From: an uncultured Gemmatimonadaceae bacterium
GTDB lineage: Bacteria > Gemmatimonadota > Gemmatimonadetes > Gemmatimonadales > Gemmatimonadaceae
Assembly (NCBI GenBank): GCA_963740355.1
Contig: CAVUDW010000002.1
Span: 1,568,001 to 1,632,000, forward strand
DNA length: 64,000 nt
Reading direction: 5' to 3'
A model generated the notes under the pieces. That model was not told the DNA's origin. It did not search any database and worked only from the letters and a program-made list of their open reading frames with translations. This document shows, one piece after another, positions 14,711 through 15,286 of the stretch; the stretch's first letter is position 1; each line of letters opens with the position of its first letter. The position numbers and the translations under genes were made by a program.

Positions 14711-15286
14711 CTACGCTCTCAGAAGCGTCCCGTTCAGGTCTGCCTGACCGGACTCGAGACATCGCTTGAGATAAGCGAGGTAGTCACGTGTTGTGTCGTC
14801 GACCTGAGCGTTCCGCAGCAGGATCCAGATCTCTGTCGCAGCGAACACCTTTTGCGGTGCGCCCGCCTGGGCGCCGAGGTAGAACGAAACCGCGCCACTG
14901 GCATTGGCTGCGTAGATGCCGGAGAGGGCGCGCCACATGATCAGCATGTCGGGTGACTCCCGCGGCAAGGTTCGTCGTAACTCCTCCTCGACGGATTCGG
15001 CGTAGTGACGGAGTGACGGGAACTTCGTATCCGGCGCTGGAACACGCTCCATCACTTGTGGCAAGATTTCCTTGTCTGCCCATTGCGGTTCCGTCTTCTG
15101 CAGCGCCAGCAGACTGCGCCAGACCGGTGCATCATAGCCAAACCCGTAATACGAATTACCAATCGTATTCTTGAGTTCACCGGCGTAGAACAGCGCCTTG
15201 CCTGGCGAGGCACGAAGCGCGCGGCGCACGGCCGGATGGTCGTGGAGGTAGCGGAGAAACAGCGTGGTGCGCGATGACAGCGCCAT
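14711..15286 (-). CDS. Putative ADP-ribosyl cyclase-fold (ARC) NAD+ glycohydrolase/cyclase, stand-alone
   Basis: ALFYAG, MWRALSGIYAANASGAV and KVFAATEIWILLRN occur in the order of the ARC motifs (FWSG; W..S..YA..A.G.V; S.F...E...L); GAGG RBS upstream of ATG. Confidence 0.65.
   Translation of the reverse strand: MALSSRTTLFLRYLHDHPAVRRALRASPGKALFYAGELKNTIGNSYYGFGYDAPVWRSLLALQKTEPQWADKEILPQVMERVPAPDTKFPSLRHYAESVEEELRRTLPRESPDMLIMWRALSGIYAANASGAVSFYLGAQAGAPQKVFAATEIWILLRNAQVDDTTRDYLAYLKRCLESGQADLNGTLLRA

What the first reader, a model, noticed from the sequence alone, without database searches (positions are those of the whole stretch)
14711..15286. Stand-alone bacterial ADP-ribosyl cyclase (CD38-like) fold protein
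Seen: ALFYAG ... WRALSGIYAANASGAVSFYL ... KVFAATEIWILLRN. Known: CD38/Aplysia cyclases and bacterial ARC toxin domains share FWS(G), W..S..(F/Y)A..A.G.V and S.F...E, the last carrying the catalytic Glu, which appears retained here. The TLEDT-type motif seems replaced (EILPQV), and in CD38 that Glu biases the reaction toward hydrolysis. Inference: an NAD(P)+-consuming enzyme that may favour cyclic products. It is unusual in not being fused to a polymorphic-toxin carrier.
Basis: partly seen in the sequence, partly recalled or inferred. Interest (0 to 1): 0.78.

Follow-up and report, generated by a model that had tools for sequence, protein, structure and literature searches.

The report
Unfused CD38-like enzyme beside T6SS
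This small bacterial gene encodes a relative of the human NAD-cleaving enzyme CD38 that, unlike the known bacterial toxin versions, has no carrier domain and no antidote gene, yet repeatedly sits in or beside type VI secretion clusters, so it may be an injected enzyme that is harmless to its maker.

Summary
The 191-aa ORF (14711-15286, minus strand) is a real gene with an ADP-ribosyl cyclase (ARC/CD38) fold. The family profile hits Tac1 and ARCtox (E 3e-5, 2e-4), and the model aligns to them at Z 10.0 and 10.3. The catalytic Glu (E152), W118 and S122 are essentially invariant. It belongs to an unannotated family of single-domain proteins (median 174 aa) under purifying selection. The two other CD38 active-site positions differ: Trp125 is Tyr, and Glu146 is mostly Pro (register inferred). 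Five of 26 related genes lie by T6SS core genes (two more by Rhs), one wedged between tssE and tssF. No shared immunity gene was found. Best reading: an NAD(P)+-cleaving T6SS cargo effector that is weak, cyclase-shifted or target-gated in its maker (about 0.4). Main rival: a non-toxic Nac-like signalling cyclase (0.3). Bias toward cyclic products is unproven. Stand-alone bacterial ARCs are already published, so this is a new variant, not a new kind.

The parts
14711..15286 (-). ARC/CD38-fold gene, 191 aa, single domain, no signal peptide or membrane helix
14831..14833 (-). Codon of E152, the predicted catalytic Glu (CD38 E226, Tac1 E573, ARCtox E356)
   Evidence: profile alignment to 9OUF and 9RO8; 115 of 116
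14921..14935 (-). W118-x3-S122 (W118 = Tac1 W540, ARCtox W323, CD38 W189)
   Evidence: both 116 of 116
15056..15067 (-). Residues 74-77 (ILPQ); P76 is at the inferred position of the second Glu (CD38 E146, Tac1 E516)
   Evidence: Pro 81, Glu 6 of 116; natural TLE[DE] members; register inferred from motif and spacing, not from a superposition
15179..15196 (-). ALFYAG strand; Y34 replaces the first active-site Trp (Tac1 W490, ARCtox W273, CD38 W125)
   Evidence: weak N-terminal profile segment; Tyr 112, Phe 4, Trp 0 of 116
14714..14797 (-). C-terminal helix (residues 164-179) and last strand; residues after 172 have no counterpart in Tac1 or ARCtox; Y172 and C176 conserved
15519..16226 (+). Divergent neighbour: YopT-type (Peptidase_C58) cysteine protease, 235 aa, apparent Cys/His/Asp triad, no co-oriented downstream gene; second candidate effector
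   Evidence: Pfam PF03543 E 3e-9; TIGR01586 E 1.6e-5, below cut-off; sequence
13663..14613 (-). Co-oriented downstream Cys-rich ORF, 316 aa, no family match; no homolog in any of the 27 related loci, so not a shared immunity gene
9332..13402 (-). Ser/Thr kinase and Ig-like/beta-propeller protein between the gene and the T6SS spike genes; kinases, often with Ig-like genes, recur in the T6SS/Rhs-linked loci
45..9275 (+). T6SS operon: tssE, tssF, tssG, clpV, vgrG (6290-8323), DUF6931, PAAR (8928-9275); the cluster runs off the window start
   Evidence: Pfam for VgrG, DUF6931 and PAAR; the others named from their sequences and tblastn matches to Pfam-named L016 proteins

Best explanation
The protein is a divergent ARC-superfamily enzyme. 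E152 cleaves the nicotinamide-ribose bond of NAD(P)+ in the cleft between the helical lobe and the sheet, with W118 stacking the nicotinamide (inferred from homology; not assayed). It most likely acts as a stand-alone cargo effector of the neighbouring type VI secretion system. Because no antidote gene travels with it, it must be tolerable in the producer. Either turnover is low and shifted toward cyclic ADP-ribose isomers (Tyr and Pro in place of two of the four canonical active-site residues), or it is switched on only in the target cell, as the MARTX RDTND domain is by calmodulin. An immunity-free T6SS effector next to a YopT-like protease points to a eukaryotic target such as a protist or fungus. 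There it would drain NAD(P)+ or make a Ca2+-type messenger. Shown here: fold, catalytic residue, selection, unfused state, recurrent T6SS linkage, no shared immunity gene. Inferred: catalysis, products, secretion, target and gating.
For: Fold: Z 10.3 (rmsd 3.0, 115 aligned) to ARCtox and 10.0 (3.1, 121) to Tac1. For a second family member, the top five of 48,161 chains are all ARC-fold proteins. Catalytic Glu in 115 of 116. dN/dS 0.06-0.15. T6SS core genes in the window and near 5 of 26 related genes, Rhs only near 2 more. In L016 the gene is co-oriented between tssE and tssF with gaps of 15 and 13 nt or less; in L004 and L023 it lies inside the cluster. The linkage needs at least 3 and at best 5 changes on a quick tree. 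No Imm74 or Imm63 hit among 288 neighbour proteins, and no recurring small neighbour. Precedents: unfused T6SS ARC effectors (PMC12356396), T6SS-linked HopBY homologs (PMC9963460), calmodulin-gated RDTND (PMC11266601), and the no-immunity-means-anti-eukaryotic rule (PMC6267618).
Against: 19 of 26 related genes show no T6SS or Rhs marker in the DNA held (several loci are short contigs). Many sit among housekeeping genes, for example between glcE- and glcF-like genes in L019/L020. Four of the seven linked genes come from Gemmatimonadales and are not independent. No secretion motif was found. The window gene is 5.4 kb from PAAR, not adjacent. In E. coli even strongly weakened Tac1 variants stayed toxic (PMC12356396), so mere attenuation may not explain the lack of immunity. 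Whether the unlinked genomes have a T6SS elsewhere was not checked. Two of four canonical active-site residues are changed, and the equivalent Trp-to-Ala change abolished ARCtox toxicity (PMC12605009).
Confidence: 0.4

Rival explanations
1. A non-toxic, cytoplasmic Nac-like cyclase that makes a cADPR-type second messenger for the cell's own use. T6SS clusters are only frequent landing sites or co-regulated contexts.
For: Second Glu absent in 110 of 116, as in Nac1 (PMC12356396). No immunity gene. 19 of 26 genes lack T6SS/Rhs markers nearby. Kept under purifying selection within housekeeping contexts (L019/L020 dN/dS 0.06; L007/L009 0.15).
Against: No receptor or effector gene recurs beside it. 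Val, not Phe, at the folding position (PMC2785692). T6SS linkage of 5 in 26 is far above my rough expectation of 1-2% (estimate from general knowledge, not computed). Nac1 has a signal peptide; this family has none (hydropathy only).
Confidence: 0.3
2. An ordinary antibacterial NAD(P)+-depleting toxin like Tac1 or ARCtox, with immunity encoded elsewhere or by an unrecognised gene.
For: The closest structures are these toxins. T6SS context. An acidic residue follows the lost Glu in 107 of 116 sequences and might replace it. The window has an unassigned co-oriented downstream ORF.
Against: For 12 of 26 genes the next gene is on the opposite strand, and for 11 it is a co-oriented gene of another known family. 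Only 3 have an unassigned co-oriented ORF, each unique to its locus. The window protein itself has Gln at that neighbouring position.
Confidence: 0.12
3. The cleft is retuned to a related reaction: an O-linked isomer such as 2'cADPR (as HopBY makes), hydrolysis of cyclic ADPR signals or NMN, base exchange, or ADP-ribose transfer.
For: Family-wide fixed changes (Tyr 112 of 116, Pro 81 of 116), an invariant-like KVF motif before the Glu and an added C-terminal helix. HopBY shows that this fold can make 2'cADPR (PMC9963460).
Against: No link to defence systems (PADLOC: no match for the window protein). No match in phages or plasmids. HopBY homologs have Trp four residues before the Glu; this family has Phe (107 of 116).
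Confidence: 0.12
4. A catalytically dead NAD-binding or structural accessory protein of the T6SS.
For: Two of four canonical residues are changed. Harmlessness needs no further explanation. In L016 it lies among baseplate genes.
Against: The catalytic Glu, Trp and Ser are the most conserved residues of the family. Its place in T6SS clusters varies, and most members lie outside them.
Confidence: 0.06

Closest known systems
Tac1 (PDB 9OUF; PMC12356396) and ARCtox PANA_2924-C (PDB 9RO8; PMC12605009); Tox-ARC of PMC3482391
   Same: Same minimal ARC fold (Z 10.0 and 10.3); catalytic Glu, second Trp, Ser and the A-x-G-x-V strand motif align; T6SS association as for ARCtox.
   Different: Those are C-terminal domains of LXG/PAAR carriers with a cognate immunity gene and keep two Glu and two Trp. 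This family is unfused, has no shared immunity gene, has Tyr and mostly Pro at two of those positions, a longer helical lobe and an extra C-terminal helix; 16-17% identity over the aligned residues.
Nac1, non-toxic ARC of Actinophytocola oryzae (PMC12356396)
   Same: Unfused, no immunity gene, second Glu absent.
   Different: Nac1 has a Sec signal peptide, an almost Tac1-identical predicted fold and no conflict-system context. This family has no signal peptide and recurs in T6SS clusters. Sequence relation to Nac1 was not tested.
HopBY (PMC9963460)
   Same: ARC-like secreted effector; its homologs often lie beside T6SS genes.
   Different: HopBY carries the domain at the C terminus of longer proteins, has Trp four residues before the Glu, and makes 2'cADPR. 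Sequence relation was not tested.
MARTX RDTND/DUF1 (PDB 8KA1, 8KA2; PMC11266601)
   Same: CD38-like NADase with a changed second acid (Asp); aligns over 144-150 residues (Z 4.8-6.0); precedent for target-cell gating.
   Different: Embedded in a large toxin and needs the adjacent RID domain and calmodulin; no such partner domain here. Z in this range is weak.
CD38, BST-1, Aplysia cyclase (Pfam PF02267)
   Same: Fold (Z 5.2-6.6), catalytic Glu, Trp189 equivalent; 19 of 52 members touch PF02267 at E<=1 (best 0.0048).
   Different: Secreted or membrane ecto-enzymes with larger lobes; the window protein scores 11.6 bits against a cut-off of 25.

Membership tests
ARC/CD38 superfamily | Two-lobed ARC fold | tested here: met
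   Foldseek top ranks are 9ouf, 9ro8, then CD38 and related cyclases (best E 0.004, none <=0.001); VIA Z 8.8 wide, 10.3/10.0, 9.7 for a second member
ARC/CD38 superfamily | Catalytic Glu (CD38 E226) | tested here: met
   E152 aligns to Tac1 E573; 115 of 116
ARC/CD38 superfamily | Nicotinamide-stacking Trp (CD38 W189) with following Ser | tested here: met
   W118 and S122, 116 of 116
ARC/CD38 superfamily | NAD(P)+ cleavage | not testable with these tools
   needs an assay
Pfam PF02267 as curated | Score above gathering cut-off (25 bits) | tested here: not met
   11.6 bits for the window protein; best member E 0.0048
Tac1/ARCtox polymorphic toxins | Fusion to a trafficking domain | tested here: not met
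   median 174 aa, range 159-288 in 116 sequences; no fused form among 66 hits without a length limit; the longer-protein search was empty but weak
Tac1/ARCtox polymorphic toxins | Adjacent cognate immunity gene (Imm74, Imm63, ARCimm) | tested here: not met
   no such Pfam hit in 288 neighbour proteins and no shared small neighbour; ARCimm itself was not used as a query
Tac1/ARCtox polymorphic toxins | Two Glu plus two Trp in the cleft | tested here: not met
   first Trp is Tyr/Phe in 116 of 116; second Glu is Pro in 81 and Glu in 6 of 116 (register inferred)
Nac (non-toxic ARC) | Second Glu absent and no immunity gene | tested here: met
Nac (non-toxic ARC) | Not encoded alongside conflict-system genes | tested here: not met
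   window and 5 of 26 relatives lie by T6SS core genes; met for 19 of 26
Nac (non-toxic ARC) | Substantial cADPR release, non-toxic in E. coli | not testable with these tools
   needs an assay
T6SS cargo effector | Genetic linkage to T6SS genes | tested here: inconclusive
   5 of 26 (7 with Rhs) plus the window; at least 3 separate changes on a quick tree; most members unlinked
T6SS cargo effector | T6SS-dependent secretion | not testable with these tools
   needs a secretion assay
HopBY family | Trp four residues before the catalytic Glu | tested here: not met
   Phe in 107 of 116, no Trp; motif from PMC9963460
MARTX RDTND | Activation through RID and calmodulin | not testable with these tools
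   no RID-like partner seen; eukaryotic calmodulin could not be modelled here

The most novel reading that the evidence does not exclude
An immunity-free T6SS cargo family with a CD38 fold that is silent or benign in the bacterium and, once injected into a eukaryotic cell such as a grazing protist, is switched on or works as a cyclase. It would flood the target with a cADPR-type Ca2+ messenger rather than simply draining NAD+. This would be a second-messenger weapon of environmental Gemmatimonadota, Acidobacteriota and Proteobacteria, and would need no antidote.
Probability: 0.2. Interest if true: 0.75.

Novelty: new variant of a known kind. Interest (0 to 1): 0.5.

Why it matters
Bacterial ARC enzymes were shown to be toxins only in 2025, and the role of the unfused, immunity-free ones is an open question raised by those papers. 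This family gives a compact test set. It is small and soluble, and cultured carriers exist (Variovorax, Massilia, Limobrevibacterium, Roseomonas). Natural members differ at the second-Glu position, and some copies sit inside T6SS operons while others do not. It can show how an NADase fold is kept safely in a cytoplasm without an antidote, and whether bacteria make or inject cADPR isomers as signals. It also points to little-studied T6SS effector sets in Gemmatimonadota and Acidobacteriota.

Tried and rejected
Single-sequence searches were uninformative: phmmer against PDB gave one chance hit, and NCBIfam and PADLOC gave no match for the window protein. tblastn against plasmids and phages found nothing at E<=1, so a phage anti-defence or plasmid role has no support here. 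The viral structure search had no hit at E<=0.001; the best was one unnamed protein at E 0.002. The search for fused forms of 505-2000 aa scored 8000 candidates and found none, which is weak evidence. C-type lectin neck matches in the PDB profile searches (3jqh; top hit) are helical-repeat artefacts and were rejected. Three further profiles did not extend the Tac1 alignment across the second Glu, so that register stays inferred. DUF922, the only recurrent non-T6SS neighbour (6 loci), was considered as immunity or partner. It carries an HExxH motif and is absent from the window and 21 loci; complex prediction gave no answer (score 0.00), which is no evidence either way. No promoter-like site, convincing terminator or meaningful repeat was found around the gene. 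ESM Atlas put an ARC cluster at feature score 0.85-0.86 and TM 0.52, a lead only. The careful tree did not finish; only the quick tree is used, and its shuffle count (27 of 500) is not meaningful because unlabelled protein rows have unknown context. Names and taxa of the closest relatives stayed unchecked. My initial recollection that HopBY degrades 2'cADPR was wrong; the paper says it produces it.

Full report
Observation. The ORF is at 14711-15286 on the minus strand and encodes 191 aa, with all quoted motifs in place. It is a real gene. The word-index search gave 28 proteins of 295 candidates at E<=0.001. The exhaustive search gave 66 among 1.84 billion representatives, self included. A profile search gave 58 of 5807 candidates of 88-504 aa, the longest 191 aa. 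Five pairs of related genes have dN/dS 0.06-0.15 (no pair includes the window gene). The sources that name any member call it hypothetical or uncharacterized.

Fold. Alone, the protein scores E 0.18 on PF02267 over residues 114-156. 19 of 52 aligned members touch that model at E<=1, more than any other family. A 52-sequence profile finds Tac1 (9OUF, E 2.9e-5), ARCtox (9RO8, 1.8e-4) and porcine CD38 (0.02) as its top three PDB sequences. The AlphaFold2 model (pLDDT 81.8) has Tac1, ARCtox and then CD38 and related cyclase entries at the top of Foldseek, although none reaches E 0.001. Structural alignment gives Z 8.8 against 48,161 representatives, where the next rows at 5.5 mix ARC and unrelated chains. 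A second look at Foldseek's matches gives Z 10.3 (rmsd 3.0, 115 aligned) and 10.0 (3.1, 121). A model of the Variovorax member (pLDDT 85.6) ranks ARCtox 9.7, BST-1 6.6, Aplysia cyclase 6.6, porcine CD38 6.3 and RDTND 4.8 as its top five. Sequence and structure agree, so the ARC assignment is secure.

Active site. Counts are over 116 distinct sequences: the 91 rows of alignment A3, 25 of 26 new hits (one short one dropped) and P0093, less one duplicate; most fragments were left out. With the residue numbers in PMC12356396, the profile alignment maps Tac1 W540 to W118 and E573 to E152; a weak N-terminal segment maps W490 to Y34. W118 and S122 are in 116 of 116 and E152 in 115. Position 34 is Tyr in 112, Phe in 4 and never Trp. 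The second Glu could not be aligned directly. That column is Pro in 81 and Glu in 6; the next is Asp/Glu in 107, but Gln in the window protein. The position equal to Aplysia Phe-174/CD38 Thr-221 (five before the Glu) is Val in 106 and never Phe. So the evidence on products is split. Loss of the second Glu released cADPR in Tac1 E516A and Nac1 (PMC12356396). Aplysia cyclase, however, keeps that Glu and depends on Phe-174 (PMC2785692). Residues after 172 have no counterpart in the two toxins, and Y172 and C176 are conserved in 102 and 103 of 116; their role is unexplained.

Architecture. Median length is 174 aa (range 159-288; 103 of 116 within 165-200), with no hydrophobic signal or membrane stretch by hydropathy. 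The longer entries I inspected look like extended start calls. The only two long hits match about 30 residues; the one printed is a repeat protein. The dedicated search of longer proteins was empty but weak. Structural look-alikes in the ESM Atlas do occur in XVIPCD, Rhs and RTX proteins (TM 0.54-0.63), so the wider fold is mobile among secretion systems while this family stays unfused.

Context. In the window the gene lies 5.4 kb from PAAR and 6.4 kb from vgrG of a T6SS operon. A Ser/Thr kinase, an Ig-like/propeller protein and a Cys-rich ORF lie in between, and a YopT-type protease is transcribed divergently 232 nt away. One scan of GTDB genomes returned 27 loci, or 26 genes, since L026 and L027 overlap by 55 nt in one assembly. 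T6SS core genes lie within the DNA held for 5 of 26 (L002, L004, L016, L023, L026), Rhs alone for 2 (L003, L005), and nothing for 19, several of which are short contigs. In Piscinibacter L016 the gene is wedged between tssE and tssF; in L004 between vgrG and tssK; in Massilia L023 between the kinase/phosphatase pair and tagF/tssM. On a quick tree of 41 rows the label needs 5 changes, at least 3 forced by well-supported branches (partial L025-L027 left out). My rough chance expectation is 1-2%, from general knowledge and not computed. Against this, four of the seven linked genes are from Gemmatimonadales, and many others sit among housekeeping genes.

Immunity. Genes were called with my own codon-usage script. 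I scanned 288 neighbour proteins with Pfam (all called genes of 60 aa or more within 6.5 kb, plus 18 further ones; best five families shown each). No Imm74 or Imm63 appeared. The next gene downstream is on the opposite strand for 12 of 26, a co-oriented gene of another known family for 11, and an unassigned ORF for 3. Those three ORFs and the window's downstream ORF have no homolog in any other locus. DUF922 recurs in 6 loci but has an HExxH motif and looks like another enzyme.

Mechanism. A cytoplasmic protein with an intact NADase Glu and no antidote must be tolerable to its maker. The most economical reading that also explains the T6SS linkage is a cargo effector that is weak, cyclase-shifted or gated by a target-cell factor, probably aimed at eukaryotes (0.4). 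The field's rule of thumb treats immunity-free T6SS effectors as anti-eukaryotic (PMC6267618). RDTND shows gating of this fold by calmodulin (PMC11266601), and HopBY shows an ARC-like effector making 2'cADPR with T6SS-linked homologs (PMC9963460). A Nac-like endogenous cyclase is a close rival (0.3). An ordinary toxin (0.12), an altered reaction (0.12) and a pseudoenzyme (0.06) follow. Catalysis itself I put near 0.85; secretion, target and product are inferred.

Novelty. Tox-ARC was predicted in 2012 (PMC3482391). Tac1, ARCtox, unfused T6SS ARC effectors with immunity genes and non-toxic Nac enzymes were published in 2025, although PMC12605009 found its homologs exclusively with secretion-targeting domains. 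I found no paper describing an unfused, immunity-free, signal-free, T6SS-embedded clade with Tyr/Pro changes. Text search cannot recognise a family by sequence, and I could not see the papers' figures or homolog lists (one of five supplements of PMC12356396 was unreadable; supplements of the other papers were not opened), so members may be hidden there. Verdict: it works like an ARC and belongs to that superfamily, but it is not a member of the Tac1/ARCtox polymorphic class and only partly fits Nac. It is a new variant of a known kind, interest 0.5.

Papers seen. PMC12356396 and PMC12605009: parts 1-4 of 7 of the text (abstract, results, discussion, start of methods). PMC9963460: passages and sections 7 and 10. 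PMC11266601, PMC3482391, PMC7824862, PMC2785692, PMC6267618: passages only. PMC12136450: search listing only. The metagenome and viral contig collections stayed unchecked.

Noticed in passing
window 15519-16226 (+): Unfused YopT-type cysteine protease with an apparent Cys/His/Asp triad, no signal peptide and no co-oriented downstream gene, in a lower-GC stretch (58.5% at 15001-16000); a likely second T6SS cargo effector. Papain-like T6SS toxins can also be antibacterial (PMC12136450, listing only).
   Followed up: partly
L002 6484-7059, L003 6195-6770, L004 8186-8773, L005 15652-16230, L025 5469-6050, L026 250-807: Signal-less DUF922 proteins with a conserved HEQGH motif recur near the ARC gene, mostly beside T6SS/Rhs genes, in Gemmatimonadales and Terriglobia; candidate T6SS metalloprotease effectors.
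   Followed up: partly
window 13663-14613 (-): 316-aa Cys-rich ORF (several CxxC pairs and a CxxCxxxCC motif) with no Pfam or NCBIfam match; resembles YkgJ-type cysteine-cluster proteins from memory only.
   Followed up: partly
L019 9977-10498 and L020 1316-1837: The gene sits inside an apparent glycolate oxidase operon (between glcE- and glcF-like genes) in a Rhizobiales isolate and a Bosea MAG, with lower GC than its flanks and dN/dS 0.06.
   Followed up: partly
L018 8042-13130: The ARC gene and a nucleotidyltransferase (NTP_transf_8) lie between two copies of a tRNA-synthetase-like plus PHB-regulator gene pair; a tandem duplication or an assembly artefact.
   Followed up: no
L010 10710-19238: The gene converges on a 2842-aa RTX calcium-binding protein; the Atlas also lists RTX proteins with a similar fold segment.
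   Followed up: no
window 15130-15180 (-), protein residues 38-52: The window protein, its two closest relatives and P0030 carry a low-confidence insertion (about 13 aa) just after the YAG strand, near the predicted cleft.
   Followed up: no
proteins P0092, P0093, P0119: A divergent sister group keeps the catalytic-site motifs, two with TLE[DE] at the second-Glu position, and has a different C terminus; possible bridge to canonical ARCs.
   Followed up: partly
BFVD entry A0A7G3MIJ6: An unnamed 288-aa viral protein matches the family model (E 0.002, TM 0.51); fits the report of ARC domains in jumbo phages (PMC7824862).
   Followed up: no
window 39257-40711 (-): FHA domain fused to a lytic transglycosylase (SLT) domain, far from the T6SS operon; possible T6SS-assembly helper.
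   Followed up: no
window 16341-25274: A fucosidase, altronate-type dehydratase, two short-chain dehydrogenases, amidohydrolase and MFS transporter form an apparent L-fucose catabolic cluster next to the candidate effector pair.
   Followed up: no
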